A stretch of DNA of 64,000 nucleotides. Origin: an uncultured Actinomycetota bacterium (GTDB lineage: Bacteria > Actinomycetota > Actinomycetes > JAHEKZ01). Each line of letters opens with the position of its first letter. Positions within the stretch are counted from its first letter, which is position 1. Made by a program: the position numbers and the translations under genes. The notes below the pieces were generated by a model. The model saw nothing but the letters and a program-made list of their open reading frames with translations, ran no database searches and was not told where the DNA came from. The DNA is taken from the NCBI GenBank assembly GCA_963829525.1, contig CAWHIJ010000003.1, positions 2,176,001 to 2,240,000 on the forward strand, written 5' to 3'. Positions 33,530 to 40,464 of this stretch are shown piece after piece.

Positions 33530-34843
33530 ATGACGACGACCGGAGAGCTCACCGGTATGTCGCCAATGGCCGACGGGCTGCCTGACGCAGAGGAGTGCCG
33601 TGCCCTCGTTACCAGCGCCCTGCACCATGGCGCACCTTCGATCGTCGCCCAGCCCATCCTCGGGCTTTCTTCGGGGCGCGTCACCGCCTACGAAGCGCTT
33701 TCCAGATTCAGCCAAGAACTCCCGTCGTACTCCCCCGACGTCTGGTTCGCCATGGCACACCGGTGCGGCCTTGGCCCCATGTTCGAGGCGCGTGCAGTTG
33801 ACCTGGCTCTTCGCGCTGGTATCGAGCGCCCTAACGGAACCCTGCTGTCGGTCAATGTCAGCCCCTCCGTCTTGAGCACCCGAGAGCTGCACGACGTCTT
33901 GCCCTTCGACCTCTCAGGACTGCAGTTTGAGATCACCGAGAAGGAGGTTGTCGCAGACGGCGACCAGTTCCAGCTGATCCTGAAAGCCTTGCGAGACCGG
34001 GGCGCGCACGTCGCCGTCGACGACGTCGGTGAGGGGTACGCGGGCCTGCAGCGAGTACTCGCGCTCTCCCCTGACGTCATCAAGCTCGACCGATCGCTGG
34101 TGACAGGTGTTGAGTCCGAACCTGTCAAGGCGGCGCTCGTCGAGGCGATCGTCCGTTACGCCGGCAGGGTCGGGGCCGAGGTATGCGCTGAGGGCGTTGA
34201 GAATCTCGACGACCTCTACGTGCTGGCCGACCTCGATGTCGCCGAGGCCCAAGGATGGGTCATCGGCATGCCGTCACCGACCTTTGATCCGGCCAGCGAG
34301 GCGGCCTCGCTCACTTGTCAGAGTTCCTACCAACGCACTCTGGCCCTCGGTTCCCGTGCTCCTGGGCAGGACACCACCGCCCTGGAACGCCTGCTGGCCG
34401 ACCTCGTCGACTGCTCAAACCTTGACCGTCTCGCCCAGATGACCGGGCCGATCGGGGAGCACCTGAAGTGCGACCTCGCTGAGATTTCGTTCATCGACTC
34501 CACGCGGCAGTACGTCCAGGCGGTGGCACCGCGCGCCTGGATGCCCGACGGTGCGCAATACCCCTTGTCAGACTTCCCACAGACCTCGCGCTGCTTGGAC
34601 ACTCTCGAGATCATGACCGTCGACCTTGACGACCCAGATGTTGATCCGGCTGAGGCCGCCTGGATGCGCAGCGAGGGTGTGACGACCATGATCGGTATCC
34701 CGGTCCTGGCAGCGGGAACCGTAGTGGGTCTGTTGGAGTGTTCCCGGAAGGTCCCCGTTCCGTGGTCGCGACTGCAGCTGCGTCACGCCAGAATCATCGC
34801 CACTGTGCTCGGCCCCGTGATGACGACACTGCAGGATCGGTAA
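33530..34843 (+). CDS. EAL-domain c-di-GMP phosphodiesterase with C-terminal GAF domain
   Basis: AQPI, YEALSRF, VNVSP, FEITE, DDVGEGY, IKLDR, AEGVE and AQGW motifs; C-terminal GAF-like region (YPLSDFP...IPV...VVGLLE). Confidence 0.88.
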   Translation: MTTTGELTGMSPMADGLPDAEECRALVTSALHHGAPSIVAQPILGLSSGRVTAYEALSRFSQELPSYSPDVWFAMAHRCGLGPMFEARAVDLALRAGIERPNGTLLSVNVSPSVLSTRELHDVLPFDLSGLQFEITEKEVVADGDQFQLILKALRDRGAHVAVDDVGEGYAGLQRVLALSPDVIKLDRSLVTGVESEPVKAALVEAIVRYAGRVGAEVCAEGVENLDDLYVLADLDVAEAQGWVIGMPSPTFDPASEAASLTCQSSYQRTLALGSRAPGQDTTALERLLADLVDCSNLDRLAQMTGPIGEHLKCDLAEISFIDSTRQYVQAVAPRAWMPDGAQYPLSDFPQTSRCLDTLEIMTVDLDDPDVDPAEAAWMRSEGVTTMIGIPVLAAGTVVGLLECSRKVPVPWSRLQLRHARIIATVLGPVMTTLQDR

Positions 34844-34887: not shown

Positions 34888-36103
34888 TTATCCGGGTGTC
34901 TCCTCGCGAAGTCCCCACGGTGACCCGTACTCGACCAGCTTGTCGAGGAACGGCTTGGGCGCGAAGGCCTCAGCTCCAAGAACTCCGGCGCCTGACCAGG
35001 TGCCGTCAGCGACGCAGCTCGAGGGCGATGACCGGGTTGATAGCCGTCTGCCAAACAACTGCCTGCGATCCGTACTCCCTCATCGTCCACTCGTTGTCAA
35101 CGACGTGGTAGAGGTACACCTGGCGAGGCTGGCCGTCCTTTCCACTACCTGTGACCCAAGTGCCGGCACACGTCTTGCCGGTCATGCGGTCCCCGAGCGT
35201 GGCGGGGTCCGGCAGCAGCGCAGCGATGACATCTCGTGGGCTGACCTCGACGCCACCAACGGCGATCTTTTGGGTGCGGTCCATACCGAGTTTGTGGATC
35301 ACTTTCAGCACATCGATGAACTCCTCACCGAGGCCATACTTGAAGGTGGCGCGATTGCAGTCGACCCAACGCGGGATGAGAAGAACTTCCTCGTGCTCGA
35401 CGTTGACGCACTCGACCGGACCGATGCCCTCAGGGAACTCGAAGACCTCTGGTTCAGAGAACGGGGGCGTTGTGAACCAGCCCTTCTCCTTCTCCCATAT
35501 CACCGGTGGGTTGAGGCACTCCTCGATGGTCGTCCAAATCGAAAAGGACGGCGCGAAGGTGAACCCGTCGACCTCGAGGTTGGATCCGTCACGGACCCCC
35601 GCCTCATCGATCTGGCTGAAGAGCTCATCTGCCGCGTACCTGGCGAAGATGTCCGACAGCCCCGGTTCCACACCCACACCCACCAGCGCGAGCCGACCCG
35701 CGGACTCCCACGCACCAGCGACGGCAAACTGCTCGTCGCCGAGCTTGACGCCCGTCTGGCGATAGGGCTCGGTCGGGTGCGGATGCGAAAGGGACATCGC
35801 CATATCGAGGTAGTCGGCGCCAGCCGCGAAGGACCCATTGAAAATCGGCAGAACGAACCGAGGATCTACCGCATTCAAGACGTGGGTGGCGTTGTGACGC
35901 CGGGCGAGGTCCGCGACCGACTCTGCGTTCGAAGCATCGACCTGGTCCGCCACGAATCGGGGATCATCGACCTGCGCGACAGCCCGCTCAGCACGCGACC
36001 GGTCGTAATCGGCCACGACCATGGTCTCGAAGAAGCTGCGACGGGCGGCGATGGGGACAACCGCCGAGCCAACACCACCTGCTCCGACCAGCAGAATGCG
36101 CAT
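34888..36103 (-). CDS. Saccharopine dehydrogenase-like oxidoreductase (carboxyspermidine/homospermidine synthase-like family), frameshift near 35014
   Basis: GAGGVG, YLDMA, GVEPG and EHEE motifs. The family-typical C-terminus ADGTWSGAGVLGAEAFAPKPFLDKL...PWG continues in the next frame after one extra base and stops at 34888. Confidence 0.8.
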
Positions 36104-36270
36104 GAGGGAGTCCTTCCGTCTCGGGCGACGTCGCCCGCCAGCACGGACTGATCGGGGGCTGCTCCCCCGTTGACTGGCTACGACCGTAGCTTGATACTAA
36201 CCTGCATCCTGACGTTTACTGGTTAGAGGTATTCGCTGGAGCGTGTCGCCGCGCTGCATGACGGGGCCCG

Positions 36271-36909
36271 TTACGCGGCTCGGGACCAGCCTTGGCATCC
36301 GGTGCGGCATCTGACTGTCGACGCACCATCGTCGTGCAAGCCGTCGTCGTGCACGCCGTCAGCTGGCAACGTCCACGGGCGCTTGACGAGGCGGGAGCCG
36401 GCTATCTTCTGCGCGCCGTAAAAGACACCGATGACGATCAACGCGTCCCCAAAGCTGAAGACGTTGGCGAAGGGCAGGGGGTCTGGCCAGACAAAGATAT
36501 CGCCGAAGAGCGGCAGCACCGGATCCTTGAGCACCCCCGAGTTGACGAACTCACCCTTGGCAAGGTCGATGCCAGCCATCTGCAGCGCCGACTTAGAGGC
36601 TGGCAGCTGACCACCGTTGAGTGCGATGGTGATGCCGTTCATCGCCCCGCCAGCAGCAATGATGATCAGCCCGGGGATCCTCCAGTTGATCGCCACGAAG
36701 ACACCGGCCGCCACATACGTCGCCATGTGAACCGCTTCCAGAAGGGTGCGGTCTGCCTCAGGGAAGATCTCGATGATGAGGATCTGCGCAAGAAGCGCTA
36801 CCACCAAGATCCACCACGCCTTGAAGCGCACATACGCAAGACGAGAGAGCTTCCCCCCGAAGAGGAGAGGGCTGACGAGCGCAAGAATGCAGAGGACGAG
36901 AACCAGCAT
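36271..36909 (-). CDS. DUF5317-type multi-pass membrane protein, candidate intramembrane aspartyl peptidase
   Basis: GGKLSRL, N75, GGAMN...ALNGGQLP, LFGDIF and NVFSFGDALI motifs. The start overlaps the upstream stop (TGATG at 36909). Confidence 0.8.
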   Translation of the reverse strand: MLVLVLCILALVSPLLFGGKLSRLAYVRFKAWWILVVALLAQILIIEIFPEADRTLLEAVHMATYVAAGVFVAINWRIPGLIIIAAGGAMNGITIALNGGQLPASKSALQMAGIDLAKGEFVNSGVLKDPVLPLFGDIFVWPDPLPFANVFSFGDALIVIGVFYGAQKIAGSRLVKRPWTLPADGVHDDGLHDDGASTVRCRTGCQGWSRAA

Positions 36910-39038
36910 CAGCTGCTCCCTACCAGACGAAGGGAAGAAGGAGCTGCGCTCGTGCGGTTCACCCGACGTTGCTCGACCACCTCGACGACTGAGTCGGGGG
37001 CCATCGGCCGCCCAATGTGATAACCCTGAGCGACGTCACAACCGAGCCCTTCAAGCCACGCCAGTGTGTCGCCGTCCTCGACCCCCTCGGCCACGATCCG
37101 GAGTCCGAGGTTGTGCCCGAGCTCAACAGTCGACGCCACGATGATGGCGTCACTGGACTGGGTATCGAGATCCATGATGAATGAGCGGTCGATCTTCAGC
37201 TCGTCGATGTCGAACTGCTTAAGGTAGTTGAGCGAGGCGTGACCTGTTCCGTAGTCATCGATAGAGACCTCGACGCCGATCCGCCGAAGCTGCTGGAGAA
37301 CGACGGAGGCTCGTTTGGGGTCGGTCATGATGCTGCTCTCGGTCACTTCGATGACCAGCTTGGAGGGAGCAACCCCCCACCGTTCCAGGGCCACGGCGAT
37401 GCGGTCGGGCAGACTCATGTCCGTAAGGTGCCGGACCGAGAGGTTGACGGCAACTGACAAATCGATCCCGGCCTCGTGCCAGGTGCGTACCTGACGGAGC
37501 GCCCGCTCGACAACGAAGAAGGTGATGGGGGCGATCAGTCCGGTGTTCTCCGCGAGCGGGATGAAGGTGTCGGGGTACTGAATGCCGCGAGTGGGGTGGT
37601 TCCATCGGACAAGCGCCTCAACGCCACGCACCTCGCCGCTGGCAACATCGATCTTGGGTTGGTACACAAGGAAGAGTTGATCGTCTTCGACAGCGGACCG
37701 AAGGTCGGTGAGGGTCGTCAACCGTTGCGGGGTGTGAGTGTCTTCATCTTCGTTGGAGTACGCACAGAATCGAGCCCTTTCCCGCTTGGCTTCGTAGAGA
37801 GCGATGTCGGAGCGACGCATGAGGGTGTGGACGTCGTCGCCGTGGTCGGGGGCCAGTGCAATGCCGAGGCTGGCCTGAACCACCAGCCGAACACCGCCGA
37901 CCGAGAAGGACTTACCAAGCACCGAGAGAAGGTAAGTGGCGACGTCCTCGGCCACTGACAGGTCAGGGATGTCTGGCAGCAGCACGGCGAACTCATCGCC
38001 GCCCAGGCGCGCAACGGTGGCCCCTTCCGGCCGTGCCTCCTCCAGGCGGTTTGCCACCTCACAGATCAGTTCGTCACCGACCTGGTGGCCAAGAGTGTCA
38101 TTGATCTCCTTGAAGTGGTCAAGGTCGATCATCATGATCGCCAGGGCCTGGCCCGACCGTTGCGAGTCCTCCAGAGCTCGTACCGAGCGATCGCGGAACA
38201 GCTCACGGTTGGCCAGGCCGGTGAGGGCATCATGACTGGCCTGACGCCCCATGGCGACCGCAAGCTTGGCGCTGTTGTAAACAGCAGCGATCGGCGCCAA
38301 CAGCATCGGCAGCATGAGGGGCTGCGTCTGCACGACGAGGGCAGCGACCGGAGCGAGGATGGCCAGCACTCCGGCGGTCATCGCCTGGAAGCGGAGGTCG
38401 GCGAGGAAGATCGGGCTCACACGTTGACCGGAGTCGATGGCGACGACTGTCGAGACCAAGATCTGGTTGACCACCAAGAACGCGGCCGCGGCGACCAGGG
38501 CCGCAAAGAGCTCGAGCGGTACCGGGTCGAAGGTGTTGTACGGGCCGAATACCGGTTCCCCGGCAACCAGGGAGTAAACGCTGTGGGCCGCCATGACGGT
38601 CAGAACGTACTGTGAAGCGTTGAAGGCGATCTTCAGCGGCGAACGCCGCGAAATCGCGTCGTCGATGATCACCGCGACAGCCTGTGCCACCACTGCAAGA
38701 CTGACTGGGCCAACAATCGCCAAGGTCAGCGTGAAGGTCGTCGAAATGGTGATCATGTCTGCGGTGTCCCCACCGCGGGGGACCGGTACCGGCCGCAGCT
38801 CGCCGACAACTACGGCGATGACCAGGATCGTCACAACCAGGCCCTGGGAGGGATAGTCTCCCCAAGCACCTACCCCCACAGCCTCTTGGATCGGAGCAAG
38901 GACCAGCGAGGCCCCCAGCGCCAAGGACGCCGTCCCGATGACCCCCCATATGTACACACCGAGCGCCCACTTGGGGCGACGCGGAAAGGGAGCCACCGAT
39001 CCATCGGTGGCTCCCCCCTCGTGCGCTAGTTGGCCCAC
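36909..39038 (-). CDS. Membrane-anchored diguanylate cyclase/phosphodiesterase (about 7-8 TM sensor + GGDEF + EAL)
   Basis: About 260-aa hydrophobic N-terminus; DALTGLANR, DLDHFKEINDTLGH, RLGGDEF; YQPK, EALVRW, DDYGTG, EGVE, QGY. Exact start uncertain. Confidence 0.93.
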   Translation of the reverse strand: MGQLAHEGGATDGSVAPFPRRPKWALGVYIWGVIGTASLALGASLVLAPIQEAVGVGAWGDYPSQGLVVTILVIAVVVGELRPVPVPRGGDTADMITISTTFTLTLAIVGPVSLAVVAQAVAVIIDDAISRRSPLKIAFNASQYVLTVMAAHSVYSLVAGEPVFGPYNTFDPVPLELFAALVAAAAFLVVNQILVSTVVAIDSGQRVSPIFLADLRFQAMTAGVLAILAPVAALVVQTQPLMLPMLLAPIAAVYNSAKLAVAMGRQASHDALTGLANRELFRDRSVRALEDSQRSGQALAIMMIDLDHFKEINDTLGHQVGDELICEVANRLEEARPEGATVARLGGDEFAVLLPDIPDLSVAEDVATYLLSVLGKSFSVGGVRLVVQASLGIALAPDHGDDVHTLMRRSDIALYEAKRERARFCAYSNEDEDTHTPQRLTTLTDLRSAVEDDQLFLVYQPKIDVASGEVRGVEALVRWNHPTRGIQYPDTFIPLAENTGLIAPITFFVVERALRQVRTWHEAGIDLSVAVNLSVRHLTDMSLPDRIAVALERWGVAPSKLVIEVTESSIMTDPKRASVVLQQLRRIGVEVSIDDYGTGHASLNYLKQFDIDELKIDRSFIMDLDTQSSDAIIVASTVELGHNLGLRIVAEGVEDGDTLAWLEGLGCDVAQGYHIGRPMAPDSVVEVVEQRRVNRTSAAPSSLRLVGSS
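38988..39015 (-). terminator. Strong hairpin after the peptide genes, overlapping the 5' end of the GGDEF-EAL gene (terminator/attenuator)
   Basis: Minus strand GGGAGCCACCGAT-GG-ATCGGTGGCTCCC followed by TTTCC. Confidence 0.6.
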
Positions 39039-39130
39039 TTCTTTCCGGCTCCAACTACCGATGCCAAGGTCAGCACCGTTGCGGCGCTGCCCAGCACGGA
39101 AACGATCACACGGGCTTTGATCTGGTCCAT
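39026..39130 (-). CDS. Small peptide precursor 2 (34 aa): MDQIKARVIVSVLGSAATVLTLASVVGAGKKWAN
   Basis: Manual translation. SD AGGAGG overlaps the previous stop codon; paralog of 39142-39246; below the ORF-track cutoff. Confidence 0.85.
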   Translation of the reverse strand: MDQIKARVIVSVLGSAATVLTLASVVGAGKKWAN

Positions 39131-39141
39131 ATCCTCGCCTC

Positions 39142-39246
39142 CTAGTTCATCCACTTGGTACCGGCACCGACCACCGAAACCAGGACCATAAGTCCGGCCG
39201 CAGCGGCGCTACCGCGCACCACCAATTCCTTGGTTACCTTGTTCAT
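39142..39246 (-). CDS. Small peptide precursor 1 (34 aa): MNKVTKELVVRGSAAAAGLMVLVSVVGAGTKWMN
   Basis: Manual translation. Purine-rich SD GGGAAGGGGAG; basic N-region, hydrophobic core and C-terminal SVVGAGxKWxN shared with the neighbour. Confidence 0.85.
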   Translation of the reverse strand: MNKVTKELVVRGSAAAAGLMVLVSVVGAGTKWMN

Positions 39247-39423
39247 CGCTCCCCTTCCCAAATCAGTCGCGACGATTGGGGAGCCGAAGACTCAACCCCC
39301 CTGCGTAATGATGTCGTTCCGCAGGGTGACTTCGTTAGACGGCCAAATGGGTGAACACAGAGTGTCATCTTGGCTACTCAGAGCGATACTTGCAGGTCAG
39401 CGTCGCGCCCTGACTGGGTAGAA

Positions 39424-40464
39424 CTAGCCCATGTGGGGTGGCTGCTGCGTGCCTCGACCTTCCAGGAGAGGCGTCGCCCGGTCCCACACGACCTCCCCGC
39501 CATCCTTGCGCCGCCGGGCGATCCCCGACAGCGCCTCCAGCACGACGCGGTTCCCGAGGAAGGCGGTGATCTCGGCATGGTCGTAGGGCGGTGAGACCTC
39601 GACAACGTCGATGCCCACCACAGGCACTTCGTAGCAGATCCGCGATACCGCATCGAGCAGCTGTCGTGCCGAGAGACCACCGGGCTCAGGCGTGCCCGTA
39701 CCGGGTGCGTGGCCGGGGTCACACACATCGATATCAACGGACAGAAAGACGCCGTCACAGTCGTCGGTGGCGATGACAAACGCCTCGTCGAGCACCTGGT
39801 CGAGCCCCTTGGCGACGATCTCGCTCATGTGGAACGAGCGCATCTTCTGGTCGGCCATCCAGTCGAGGGTCTCCGGGCCCGGCCAGTAGCCGCGCAGCCC
39901 CAACTGCAAGAAGCGGTCCCCACGCGCGGCCCCCGACTCGATCAACCGCCGCATCGGCTGGCCATGTCCGTAGAGCGACCCGAACTCGATGTCGCCGGTG
40001 TCGGCATGCGCATCAAAGTGGATGATCGAGACCCTGCCGAACCCAGCAGACCGGGCAACGCCCGTGACGTCGGGCCAGGTGACCGTGTGGTCGCCACCGA
40101 GAACGAGTGGAATCTTGCCTGCTTCAGCGACACGCGCCACCGCATCCTCGATGATCTGGCAGCTTCTGACGACATCTCCGGAGTACACCTCGAGGTCGCC
40201 GGCATCAACTACCCGAAGGTCCTCGGTGAGCGCCTCCACACGCATCGCCATGTGCGGTCGCAACCCGTCCTGCGGCAGGTAGTCGGTCGAGCGCATCGCC
40301 ATCGGCCCAAATCGCGTCCCGGGGCGGTGGCTGGTGCCGCCGTCGAAGGGGGCGCCGATGATGACCACATCGGCATCGGCGAAGGTCGACGGGTCGTCGA
40401 GGTCGCAGGCGGGTACGCCAAGGAAGGTGATGTCGGGGCCGAACATGGGCCCGTAGCGCGTCAT
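39424..40464 (-). CDS. speB: Agmatinase/guanidinobutyrase (ureohydrolase family)
   Basis: RPGTRFGP, GGDH, HFDAHAD, SVDIDVCDP...PGTGTPEPGG and VVEVSP motifs. Confidence 0.85.
   Translation of the reverse strand: MTRYGPMFGPDITFLGVPACDLDDPSTFADADVVIIGAPFDGGTSHRPGTRFGPMAMRSTDYLPQDGLRPHMAMRVEALTEDLRVVDAGDLEVYSGDVVRSCQIIEDAVARVAEAGKIPLVLGGDHTVTWPDVTGVARSAGFGRVSIIHFDAHADTGDIEFGSLYGHGQPMRRLIESGAARGDRFLQLGLRGYWPGPETLDWMADQKMRSFHMSEIVAKGLDQVLDEAFVIATDDCDGVFLSVDIDVCDPGHAPGTGTPEPGGLSARQLLDAVSRICYEVPVVGIDVVEVSPPYDHAEITAFLGNRVVLEALSGIARRRKDGGEVVWDRATPLLEGRGTQQPPHMG

What the first reader, a model, noticed from the sequence alone, without database searches (positions are those of the whole stretch)
36271..36909. 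The DUF5317 protein carries signal peptidase II (LspA)-like motifs
Seen: GGAMN (G87-N91) in a TM helix, then LFGD137IF and NVFSFGD155ALI, with the two Asp 18 residues apart and the second at the start of the last TM helix. Established: LspA has the ordered motifs GGALGN..., VVDF and PVFNxAD, with a catalytic Asp dyad at similar spacing (D124/D143 in Pseudomonas aeruginosa LspA). Inference: this domain of unknown function is a divergent LspA-fold intramembrane aspartyl peptidase acting on the Cys-less precursors encoded upstream.
Basis: partly seen in the sequence, partly recalled or inferred. Interest (0 to 1): 0.78.

Follow-up and report, generated by a model that had tools for sequence, protein, structure and literature searches.

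The report
DUF5317: LspA-like motifs, different fold
A small five-helix membrane protein of unknown function carries two invariant outward-facing aspartates arranged locally as in lipoprotein signal peptidase, does not share that enzyme's fold, and is almost always encoded beside a membrane signalling sensor and tiny signal-peptide-like genes, which makes it a testable but unproven candidate peptide-processing enzyme.

Summary
The gene (36271-36909, minus strand, 212 aa) is a DUF5317 protein with GGAMN at 87-91, D137 and D155. G87, N91 and D137 are invariant in 159 of 159 relatives and D155 in 158 of 159.

Profile-profile comparison with LspA scores 27.6 (P 9e-4) and aligns both aspartates with the LspA dyad. 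Five decoy membrane families score 11.7-14.9 and shuffled LspA profiles average 13.8. However, a confident AlphaFold model (pLDDT 90) finds no LspA structure by Foldseek. The genome's genuine LspA, modelled the same way, finds 6RYP, 5DIR and 6RYO at E 1e-9 to 5e-8. The protein is therefore not an LspA-fold member.

The "Cys-less precursors" are real. They are about 30-residue signal-peptide-like micropeptides ending [LV]-G-A-G-x-K-W, detected in 103 of 120 DUF5317 loci. A MASE9 membrane-sensor protein lies next to DUF5317 in 112 of 120 loci, with GGDEF-EAL, HD-GYP or histidine-kinase outputs.

Best reading (about 0.4): DUF5317 is an aspartyl peptidase with an LspA-like active site that clips these micropeptides and so tunes MASE9 signalling. 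A non-catalytic peptide-binding co-sensor is nearly as likely. No paper in the searched library mentions DUF5317. This scan has noted the same module before on other genomes.

The parts
36271..36909 (-). DUF5317 gene, 212 aa plus stop. It has five predicted TM helices (2-17, 33-48, 54-74, 81-97, 153-170), a conserved 55-residue outer loop (98-152), and a poorly conserved, low-confidence cytoplasmic tail (171-212).
   Evidence: ORF; Pfam PF17248 at 83.3 bits; AlphaFold2 pLDDT 90.1; loop K+R counts give N-out/C-in topology.
36637..36651 (-). Codons for G87-G-A-M-N91 in TM helix 4. G87 and N91 are invariant. N91 lies 6 residues before the outer end of the helix, the same register as N94 in this genome's LspA helix 78-100.
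   Evidence: (159 of 159)
36499..36501 (-). Codon of D137 (motif L-G-D-[VI]-F), invariant, two residues before the short strand 139-141 in the outer loop.
   Evidence: (159 of 159)
36445..36447 (-). Codon of D155 (motif N-V-F-S-x-G-D), third residue of the last TM helix. It aligns with the second catalytic Asp of LspA (F-N-x-A-D).
   Evidence: (158 of 159)
36909..39038 (-). MASE9-like membrane domain (about residues 19-260) followed by GGDEF and EAL domains, 709 aa as listed. The exact start codon is uncertain. Its TGA stop overlaps the DUF5317 ATG by one base (TGATG).
   Evidence: Pfam EAL 1.8e-74, GGDEF 1.5e-45, MASE9 E 0.0029 (18 bits, below the 24.3 cut-off); local MASE9-type HMM 2.2e-64; junction sequence.
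39026..39130 (-). Micropeptide gene 2: 34 codons plus stop, with GGAGG 9-13 nt before the ATG. The product has a basic N-end, one TM helix, a C-end V-V-G-A-G-K-K-W-A-N, and no Cys.
39142..39246 (-). Micropeptide gene 1: 34 codons plus stop, a paralogue of gene 2 with C-end V-V-G-A-G-T-K-W-M-N and no Cys.

Best explanation
DUF5317 is the peptide-handling component of a conserved three-part membrane module. The parts are one to three cargo-less, signal-peptide-like micropeptides (K/R-rich N-end, one TM helix, C-end [LV]-G-A-G-x-K-W plus 0-3 residues), a MASE9 membrane-sensor protein with a variable output (GGDEF-EAL here; HD-GYP or histidine kinase elsewhere), and DUF5317.

The most likely mechanism is inferred, not shown. 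DUF5317 would be an intramembrane aspartyl peptidase whose active site (D137 and D155 at the outer-leaflet boundary, with N91 and N98 nearby) is built locally like that of LspA on a different five-helix scaffold. It would clip the micropeptide at or next to the small-residue G-A-G motif, which sits at the same membrane depth. That cleavage would change what the MASE9 domain senses in the membrane, and so change c-di-GMP turnover.

Shown: the motifs, their invariance, the outward topology, the gene linkage, and the specific but weak profile similarity to LspA. Inferred: juxtaposition of the Asp pair, catalysis, the substrate, and the link to signalling.
For: (1) Invariant polar residues: D137, N75, G87, N91, N98 and P103 in 159 of 159 rows and D155 in 158 of 159.

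(2) Profile-profile similarity to LspA: score 27.6, P 9e-4, both Asp aligned to the LspA dyad. The tool's own hhalign gives E 0.0023 over the second-Asp motif. Decoy profiles score A24 12.4, rhomboid 13.7, CPBP 11.7, PAP2 14.9 and MASE9 14.5. Shuffled LspA profiles average 13.8 (sd 2.9, max 21.1) and 0 of 60 reach 25.8. Two of 111 relatives give weak Pfam Peptidase_A8 hits, best E 0.029.

(3) The order of local secondary structure is the same in both AlphaFold models: a helix carrying G-x-x-x-N six residues before its outer end, then a loop, then a strand at Asp1, then a bridge at the Phe four residues before Asp2, then a last helix with Asp2 as its third residue.

(4) Topology: mean K+R is 3.3, 1.4 and 2.5 in loops 18-32, 75-80 and the C-tail, against 0.14 in loop 49-53. 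This puts loop 98-152 and both Asp outside.

(5) Candidate substrates: micropeptides were detected in 28 of 40 and 75 of 80 DUF5317 loci, using an HMM thresholded 3 bits above the best false hit in the 2.96-Mb genome. In 108 distinct peptides aligned on the K/R-W pair, the frequencies are G 102, A 106, G 81, K 100 and W 98. The motif resembles a lipobox without Cys.

(6) DUF5317 fused N-terminally to MFS exporters in 7 of 10 long forms tested. This recalls peptidase-exporter fusions; the analogy is from memory.

(7) In the own genome only 1 of 4 MASE9-type proteins has DUF5317 and peptides beside it. The peptides therefore track DUF5317 rather than MASE9 in general.
Against: The overall fold is not LspA. 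Foldseek against the PDB gave 9 matches, all with E of 4.2 or more and none LspA, while the positive control with the true LspA worked. DUF5317 has five helices, no beta-cradle, and no counterpart of LspA D11, K15 or N42-x-G44-x-x-F47.

The hhalign probability is only 13-23%. With A1 the first Asp and GGAMN were not aligned to their proposed LspA partners.

In HMM-versus-sequence tests LspA ranked only 49th of 12,041 ORFs, and DUF5317 ranked 186th in the reciprocal search. As a single sequence, LspA scored 20.0 in a different register, below three of 199 membrane-protein decoys at 22.7-22.8. Profile search of PDB sequences gave 0 hits.

The fragment released after G-A-G would be only 3-6 residues (114 of 116 peptides). 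The near-invariant K-W could equally be a binding epitope for the two Asp. G-A-G also fits the -3/-1 rule of ordinary signal peptidase I (recalled), so another enzyme could do any cleavage. The Asp-Asp distance was not measured.
Confidence: 0.4

Rival explanations
1. DUF5317 is a non-catalytic co-sensor or adaptor. It would bind the micropeptide's outer G-A-G-x-K-W end, with the invariant Asp pairing with the conserved Lys/Arg, and form a three-part sensing complex with the MASE9 domain in the membrane. This would resemble small membrane proteins that regulate sensor kinases. No cleavage would occur.
For: The linkage is to the input (MASE9) domain while outputs vary. Among 48 MASE9 ORFs in set A: HD-GYP 20, GGDEF+EAL 12, HK 7, GGDEF alone 1, none detected 8. 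Among 74 in set B: GGDEF+EAL 69, GGDEF 2, HK 1, none detected 2. DUF5317 and MASE9 are immediate neighbours in 38 of 40 and 74 of 80 loci, with a median gap of 390 bp. The MASE9 stop and DUF5317 start overlap by one base, suggesting coupled translation. The peptide tail K-W is as conserved as G-A-G. The fold is not that of any known protease. The authors of MASE9 proposed ligand binding inside the membrane (passages read).
Against: About ten polar residues (3 Asn, 2 Asp, Gln, His, Tyr, Ser) are invariant or nearly so at 35-40% overall identity. That pattern is more typical of an active site or ion site than of a docking surface. The specific similarity to the catalytic motifs of LspA would be left unexplained, as would the fusions to MFS exporters.
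Confidence: 0.35
2. DUF5317 is a different kind of membrane enzyme, or an ion- or small-molecule-binding or transport protein. Examples would be an enzyme acting on a lipid or on the peptide's terminus, or a cation site built from Asn and Asp. Its product or flux would be what MASE9 senses, and the LspA resemblance would be convergent or coincidental.
For: The Asn/Asp-rich invariant set within and next to the membrane. The fusion to MFS transporters. No structural relative in the PDB or BFVD. The overall fold is unlike LspA.
Against: No similarity to any transporter or lipid-enzyme family was found in Pfam at E up to 10 beyond scattered single hits. PAP2 scores only 14.9 in hhalign. A single 5-TM protein with one large outer loop is an unusual transporter. 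The tight linkage to the micropeptide genes is not explained.
Confidence: 0.15
3. DUF5317 is a true, extremely diverged homologue and member of the LspA (A8) family with the LspA fold.
For: Motif order, both Asp aligned, and weak Peptidase_A8 hits in 2 of 111 relatives.
Against: Foldseek finds no LspA for DUF5317 but finds it readily for the genome's real LspA. DUF5317 has five rather than four helices, no beta-cradle, and none of the LspA N-terminal invariants. The genome already has a canonical LspA. The candidate substrates have no lipobox Cys.
Confidence: 0.05

Closest known systems
LspA, lipoprotein signal peptidase II (MEROPS A8, Pfam PF01252; structures 5DIR, 6RYO, 6RYP)
   Same: Two acidic residues at the outer-leaflet boundary, the second in the first turn of the last TM helix within F-[NS]-x-[AG]-D. 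A G-x-x-x-N in the preceding helix. The same in-to-out and out-to-in topology of the last two helices. A profile similarity well above decoys. Candidate substrates that look like signal peptides with a small-residue box.
   Different: Five TM helices instead of four. No beta-cradle and no LspA N-terminal invariants. A loop 28 residues longer before Asp1. No Foldseek match (against control). No Pfam A8 match for this protein. The candidate substrates carry no Cys and essentially no mature domain.
MASE9-containing signalling proteins (Pfam PF20972; defined by Galperin and Chou, bioRxiv 10.1101/2021.11.05.467447; examples TM1467 and HdgA, from passages read)
   Same: The neighbouring gene has this N-terminal membrane domain coupled to GGDEF-EAL. 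Neighbours in other loci carry MASE9 with HD-GYP or histidine kinase.
   Different: DUF5317 is a separate protein, not a MASE9 domain (hhalign 14.5). The passages read do not mention DUF5317 or micropeptides, but the rest of the paper and its supplementary figures were not read. The window's own domain scores below Pfam's MASE9 cut-off (18 against 24.3 bits).
Small single-pass membrane proteins that modulate sensors, such as MgrB with PhoQ (recalled, no call)
   Same: Micropeptides of about 30 residues with one TM helix, encoded with a membrane sensor.
   Different: Here a third conserved protein with enzyme-like invariant residues always accompanies them. The peptides resemble signal peptides with a conserved C-terminal box.
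Peptidase-exporter fusions such as C39-peptidase ABC transporters, and enterococcal pheromones cut out of lipoprotein signal peptides (both recalled, no call)
   Same: A processing domain fused to an exporter is matched by the DUF5317-MFS fusions (7 of 10). A signal-peptide-like sequence would serve as the source of a signal.
   Different: The transporter class differs (MFS, not ABC) and the putative catalytic type differs. No evidence here that anything is secreted.
GxGD intramembrane aspartyl proteases (prepilin peptidase A24, presenilin/SPP A22)
   Same: Both DUF5317 Asp follow a Gly (L-G-D and x-G-D).
   Different: hhalign against a 25-sequence actinobacterial A24 profile scores 12.4, P 0.45. 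The only Foldseek row of this class (SPPL2a) has E 7.8. The helix number differs, and the active site lies on the opposite membrane side (recalled).

Membership tests
DUF5317 (Pfam PF17248) | Match to the family HMM above the gathering score | tested here: met
   83.3 bits against a cut-off of 25, E 2.3e-23. All 120 listed homologues carry PF17248.
LspA / Peptidase A8 (PF01252) | Match to the Peptidase_A8 HMM | tested here: not met
   No A8 hit for this protein at E up to 10. Two of 111 relatives give weak hits, best E 0.029. The genome's real LspA scores 122.9 bits.
LspA / Peptidase A8 (PF01252) | Four-helix fold with periplasmic beta-cradle, superposable on 5DIR, 6RYO or 6RYP | tested here: not met
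   Foldseek against the PDB returned 9 matches, best E 4.2, none LspA. The control with the own LspA model found 6RYP, 5DIR and 6RYO at E 1e-9 to 5e-8, TM 0.75-0.81. The DUF5317 model has five helices and no cradle.
LspA / Peptidase A8 (PF01252) | Two conserved catalytic Asp at the outer membrane boundary, the second at the start of the last helix | tested here: inconclusive
   Conservation and topology are met: D137 159 of 159 and D155 158 of 159, both on the outer side. They align to the LspA dyad. The spatial juxtaposition could not be measured.
LspA / Peptidase A8 (PF01252) | N-terminal invariants (Asp and Lys in TM1; N-x-G-x-x-F of the cradle; Arg after G-G-A-x-G-N) | tested here: not met
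   LspA invariants are D11, K15, N42, G44, F47 and R98. DUF5317 invariants are Q42, H61, Y65, N75, N98 and P103, with no equivalents of the LspA set.
LspA / Peptidase A8 (PF01252) | Substrates are diacylglyceryl-Cys prolipoproteins (lipobox ending in Cys) | tested here: not met
   The linked micropeptides end [LV]-G-A-G-x-K-W, and the two in the window carry no Cys.
LspA / Peptidase A8 (PF01252) | Proteolytic activity inhibited by globomycin or myxovirescin | not testable with these tools
   This is a bench assay.
Micropeptide - MASE9 sensor - DUF5317 gene module (undescribed in print; seen before in this scan) | A MASE9-type membrane-sensor gene immediately next to DUF5317 | tested here: met
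   In the window the stop and start overlap. Across loci: 38 of 40 and 74 of 80, all within 1.5 kb. The own genome has only 4 such proteins among 12,041 ORFs.
Micropeptide - MASE9 sensor - DUF5317 gene module (undescribed in print; seen before in this scan) | One or more micropeptide genes of about 30 codons ending G-A-G-x-K-W upstream of the sensor | tested here: met
   Two in the window. Across loci: 28 of 40 and 75 of 80. Only 4 in the whole own genome.
GxGD aspartyl proteases (A24 / A22) | Profile or fold similarity to prepilin peptidase or presenilin-type proteases | tested here: not met
   hhalign against A24 scores 12.4, P 0.45. SPPL2a in Foldseek has E 7.8.

The most novel reading that the evidence does not exclude
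DUF5317 founds a new family of intramembrane aspartyl peptidases. It would have an LspA-type active site rebuilt on an unrelated five-helix fold, and its only substrates would be cargo-less signal-peptide-like micropeptides cut at [LV]-G-A-G / x-K-W. The cut (or uncut) transmembrane peptide would be the in-membrane ligand of the MASE9 domain. Together the three genes would form a self-contained peptide-to-second-messenger (c-di-GMP or His-kinase) signalling circuit, widespread in Actinomycetota and, according to earlier notes of this scan, in other phyla.
Probability: 0.3. Interest if true: 0.85.

Novelty: new variant of a known kind. Interest (0 to 1): 0.66.

Why it matters
DUF5317 is a large family: 1,965 representatives at 50% clustering reach E of 1e-3 or better, and it occurs in 121 of 301 sampled genomes of the phylum. 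No paper in the searched library mentions it.

MASE9 is a named sensor domain whose signal is unknown. Its constant companions, a micropeptide and an enzyme-like membrane protein, give the first concrete and cheaply testable idea of what it senses. If the peptidase reading holds, it would add a new structural class of intramembrane aspartyl protease. It would also add a new way of feeding a peptide signal into c-di-GMP metabolism.

If the reading fails, the three-gene module still defines a new accessory system for membrane sensors.

Tried and rejected
1. Sequence searches against the PDB. The single sequence gave only chance hits to dihydrodipicolinate synthase (E 0.43-1). The profile gave 0 hits.

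2. Foldseek against viral structures (BFVD) gave nothing below E 5.5.

3. ESM Atlas. There was no usable hit outside DUF5317. A relative (P0118) returned only DUF5317 clusters. No structure search was possible in either call.

4. Complex prediction with the MASE9 domain (A3) and DUF5317 residues 1-180 (A1) returned 'no answer', score 0.00 in both runs, and the controls were not run. This counts neither for nor against binding.

5. The search for related loci with alignment A1 failed for lack of a conserved stretch. A narrower alignment, A4, worked but returned only Actinomycetota, so the cross-phylum range was not tested here.

6. HMM-versus-sequence ranking in the own genome (LspA 49th and DUF5317 186th of 12,041) and hhalign against single sequences gave no significant signal. 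Only profile-profile comparison separates LspA from decoys.

7. The leader of the operon shows no Rfam family at E up to 1 in 36000-40000. The 184-nt leader does not fold better than shuffles (z -0.28). The promoter and terminator scans are at chance level.

8. NCBIfam has no model for DUF5317 or for the micropeptides.

9. The GxGD protease idea was rejected.

Full report
WHAT IS THERE. The finding's coordinates hold one ORF on the minus strand, 36271..36909, 212 aa. Pfam places it in DUF5317 (PF17248: 83.3 bits, cut-off 25, E 2.3e-23). NCBIfam has no model for it.

STRUCTURE AND TOPOLOGY. An AlphaFold2 model built on a 111-sequence alignment (A1) is confident, with pLDDT 90.1 and pTM 0.82. 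It shows five helices (2-17, 33-48, 54-74, 81-97, 153-170). Between helices 4 and 5 lies a 55-residue loop that contains short strands at 102-104, 139-141 and 149-151. The tail from 171 to 212 has low confidence. Mean K+R counts over 159 sequences are 3.3 in loop 18-32, 1.4 in loop 75-80 and 2.5 in the C-tail, against 0.14 in loop 49-53. The protein is therefore N-out and C-in, and the big loop and both Asp face outwards.

CONSERVATION. An exhaustive HMMER search of 1.84 billion cluster representatives found 1,965 relatives at E of 1e-3 or better. Among the best 149, G87, N91 and D137 are present in 149 of 149 and D155 in 147 of 149. I widened the alignment with family members taken from the phylum-wide loci, giving 159 rows. 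Up to two of those rows come from genomes flagged unpublished (G120, G148), and no conclusion depends on them. In that alignment N75, G87, N91, N98, P103 and D137 are 159 of 159, D155 is 158 of 159 and S152 is 157 of 159. This is an enzyme-like or ion-site-like pattern and not a chance occurrence.

SEQUENCE TEST OF THE LspA IDEA. The genome has a canonical LspA (PF01252, 122.9 bits), and LspA occurs in 59 of 61 sampled genomes of the phylum (that tally includes three unpublished genomes). I built a 30-sequence actinobacterial LspA alignment (A2). Its invariant residues are D11, K15, N42, G44, F47, G89, G90, G93, N94, R98, D112, F122, N123 and D126.

- hhalign of DUF5317 against LspA gave probability 14%, P 0.002 and score 25.8 with A1.
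- The tool's own hhalign gave probability 12.6% and E 0.0023 over 33 columns covering the second-Asp motif and the last helix.
- With the 159-row alignment it gave probability 22.9%, P 9e-4 and score 27.6. D137 then aligned to the first and D155 to the second catalytic Asp.

SEQUENCE CONTROLS.
- Sixty LspA profiles shuffled within 12-column blocks scored 13.8 +/- 2.9 (max 21.1), and none reached the real value. Reversed profiles scored 19.7 and 18.9.
- Five real membrane-family profiles from the same phylum scored 12.4 (A24 prepilin peptidase), 13.7 (rhomboid), 11.7 (CPBP, only 3 sequences), 14.9 (PAP2) and 14.5 (MASE9).
- Weaker methods see nothing. The DUF5317 HMM ranks LspA 49th of 12,041 ORFs of the genome, and the reciprocal rank is 186th.
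- LspA as a single sequence scores 20.0 in another register, below three of 199 membrane-protein decoys.
- Two of 111 relatives touch Pfam Peptidase_A8, with best E 0.029.

Overall there is a specific but sub-threshold resemblance, concentrated in the catalytic half.

FOLD TEST OF THE LspA IDEA. Foldseek of the DUF5317 model against 350,542 PDB chains gave nine matches, all with E of 4.2 or more and none of them LspA. As a positive control I modelled the genome's own LspA from A2 (pLDDT 89.6) and searched in the same way. It found 6RYP, 5DIR and 6RYO at E 1e-9 to 5e-8 with TM 0.75-0.81. DUF5317 is therefore not an LspA-fold protein. It has five helices rather than four, no beta-cradle, and none of the LspA N-terminal invariants.

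What the two models do share is the order of local elements:
- a helix with G-x-x-x-N whose Asn lies six residues before the outer end of the helix (N91 in helix 81-97; N94 in helix 78-100);
- an outer loop;
- a strand at the first Asp;
- a bridge at the Phe four residues before the second Asp;
- a last helix with the second Asp as its third residue.

I could not obtain coordinates, so the Asp-Asp distance is unknown.

SURROUNDINGS IN THE WINDOW. Directly upstream on the same strand lies a 709-aa protein with GGDEF (1.5e-45) and EAL (1.8e-74) domains and an N-terminal polytopic membrane domain. That domain hits Pfam MASE9 only weakly (E 0.0029, 18 bits, cut-off 24.3). Its stop overlaps the DUF5317 start by one base (TGATG). 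Upstream of it are two paralogous 34-codon genes (39142-39246 and 39026-39130, minus strand), the second with a GGAGG Shine-Dalgarno sequence. Each encodes a basic N-end, one hydrophobic helix and a C-end V-V-G-A-G-[TK]-K-W-x-N, with no Cys.

HOW GENERAL IS THE MODULE: MASE9. I examined two sets of DUF5317 loci with about 6 kb of flank on each side.
- Set A has 40 loci taken by genome handle: 9 from the window's own family, 3 from the same class and 28 spread over the phylum.
- Set B has 80 loci from named public genomes, selected only by DUF5317 motifs. All are Actinomycetota, mostly Solirubrobacterales and Acidimicrobiales.

An HMM of the sensor's membrane domain, iterated on set A, finds such a domain in 38 of 40 set-A loci. 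Applied unchanged to set B, it finds one in 74 of 80, always within 1.5 kb of DUF5317 (median 390 bp). Five of the six misses have DUF5317 within 3 kb of a contig end. The same HMM hits only 4 of 12,041 ORFs in the own genome, so chance adjacency would be about 1-2%.

Pfam on eight set-A neighbours gave MASE9 in six, five of them above the cut-off. Their outputs were HD-GYP (3 proteins) or HisKA-HATPase with or without GAF (5 proteins). By local searches, the outputs of the MASE9 ORFs are:
- set A (48 ORFs): HD-GYP 20, GGDEF+EAL 12, HK 7, GGDEF 1, none detected 8;
- set B (74 ORFs): GGDEF+EAL 69, GGDEF 2, HK 1, none detected 2.

The linkage is therefore to the sensing domain and not to the output. 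MASE9 was defined by Galperin and Chou (bioRxiv 10.1101/2021.11.05.467447). I read the passages around the term. They describe eight TM segments and suggest that ligand binding occurs within the membrane. Those passages do not mention DUF5317 or small peptides. I did not read the rest of the paper, and its supplementary figures could not be seen.

HOW GENERAL IS THE MODULE: MICROPEPTIDES. A peptide HMM was iterated and thresholded 3 bits above the best false hit in all six frames of the 2.96-Mb own genome. It detects a micropeptide gene in 28 of 40 set-A loci and 75 of 80 set-B loci. Fifteen loci that an earlier, weaker model had missed all showed such a gene by eye between the sensor and DUF5317 (15 of 15).

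In 108 distinct peptides aligned on the K/R-W pair, the box reads [LV] (88), G (102), A (106), G (81; P in 12), x, K (100; R in 8), W (98; F in 10). After the G-A-G box, 114 of 116 peptides have only 3-6 residues.

The own genome has exactly four such genes: the two here and an orphan pair at G000:C3:1800698-1800980, which lies next to a DUF2157 membrane protein and an M20 peptidase. Only one of the four MASE9-type proteins in the genome has peptides and DUF5317 beside it. The peptides therefore track DUF5317.

FUSIONS. Sixteen of the 150 listed representatives are 450 aa or longer. Of ten scanned, seven carry a C-terminal MFS transporter (six also match MFS_3), and three have an extension with no Pfam match.

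MECHANISM. The geometry is coherent. The peptide's basic N-end should stay inside the cell, so its G-A-G-x-K-W box would sit at the outer leaflet boundary. That is where DUF5317 places D137, D155 and its conserved loop. The box resembles a lipobox without the Cys. I therefore rank first (0.4) an aspartyl peptidase with an LspA-like site on a new scaffold that clips the micropeptide and thereby changes what MASE9 senses.

Nearly as likely (0.35) is a non-catalytic co-sensor in which the Asp pair binds the conserved Lys. The different fold, the tiny size of the would-be product and the conservation of K-W speak for that reading. A different enzyme or an ion site is possible (0.15). True LspA membership is unlikely (0.05).

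PRIOR KNOWLEDGE. Full-text searches for 'DUF5317' and 'PF17248' returned 0 papers. 'MASE9' returned 2, one of them relevant. After I had reached this reading, a look-up of this scan's earlier notes showed that the same module and the same 'LspA-like motif, different fold' verdict had been reported on other genomes. Those notes add claims of a cross-phylum range and, in some lineages, a structured RNA leader or a c-di-GMP riboswitch. Here I found no Rfam match and no unusual fold in the leader.

UNPUBLISHED GENOMES. The tallies include genomes flagged unpublished. The conclusions do not rest on them.

VERDICT. The motif, the topology and the candidate substrates hold up. The LspA fold and family membership do not, and catalysis is untested. 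In print the family is uncharacterised, and it offers a simple decisive experiment.

Noticed in passing
L302:3198-3480 (= G000:C3:1800698-1800980, outside the window): A second, orphan pair of micropeptide genes with the same G-A-G-x-K-W ending. No MASE9 or DUF5317 gene lies beside it. It sits between a DUF2157 membrane protein (with a TetR regulator further upstream) and an M20 peptidase.
   Followed up: partly
window 33530-34843 (+): A cytoplasmic EAL-GAF protein (EAL 2.1e-41, GAF 1.5e-07) lies about 1.4 kb beyond the DUF5317 gene. An EAL-only hit at a similar distance recurs in 6 of the 9 same-family loci (L083, L085, L087-L090). A second c-di-GMP gene may therefore belong to the neighbourhood in this genus.
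   Followed up: partly
window 36907-36911: The TGA stop of the MASE9-GGDEF-EAL gene and the ATG of DUF5317 overlap by one base (TGATG), which suggests translational coupling. The start of the sensor gene itself is uncertain: the listed GTG at 39038 lies inside the coding region of micropeptide gene 2.
   Followed up: partly
G301:C1:765067-765475 (same genus): In one congeneric genome the DUF5317 match is in two pieces, one of them with an in-frame TGA. This could be a disrupted copy or an assembly error. In L090 (G303) the sensor gene is likewise split into two overlapping ORFs.
   Followed up: no
proteins P0127, P0135, P0136 (508-561 aa): These long DUF5317 forms have a C-terminal extension of about 330 residues that matches no Pfam family, unlike the MFS fusions.
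   Followed up: no
window 35006-36103 (-): A saccharopine-dehydrogenase-like gene (Sacchrp_dh_NADP 3.7e-19, Sacchrp_dh_C 1.3e-19) lies directly downstream of DUF5317 on the same strand. It is probably unrelated to the module.
   Followed up: no
set A/B loci, e.g. L062, L063, L065, L081, L092, L095, L096, L100: Many loci outside the window's family carry two tandem MASE9 proteins of about 420-450 aa next to one DUF5317. Where tested, these are MASE9-HD-GYP or HD-GYP (L062, L065 and L100).
   Followed up: partly
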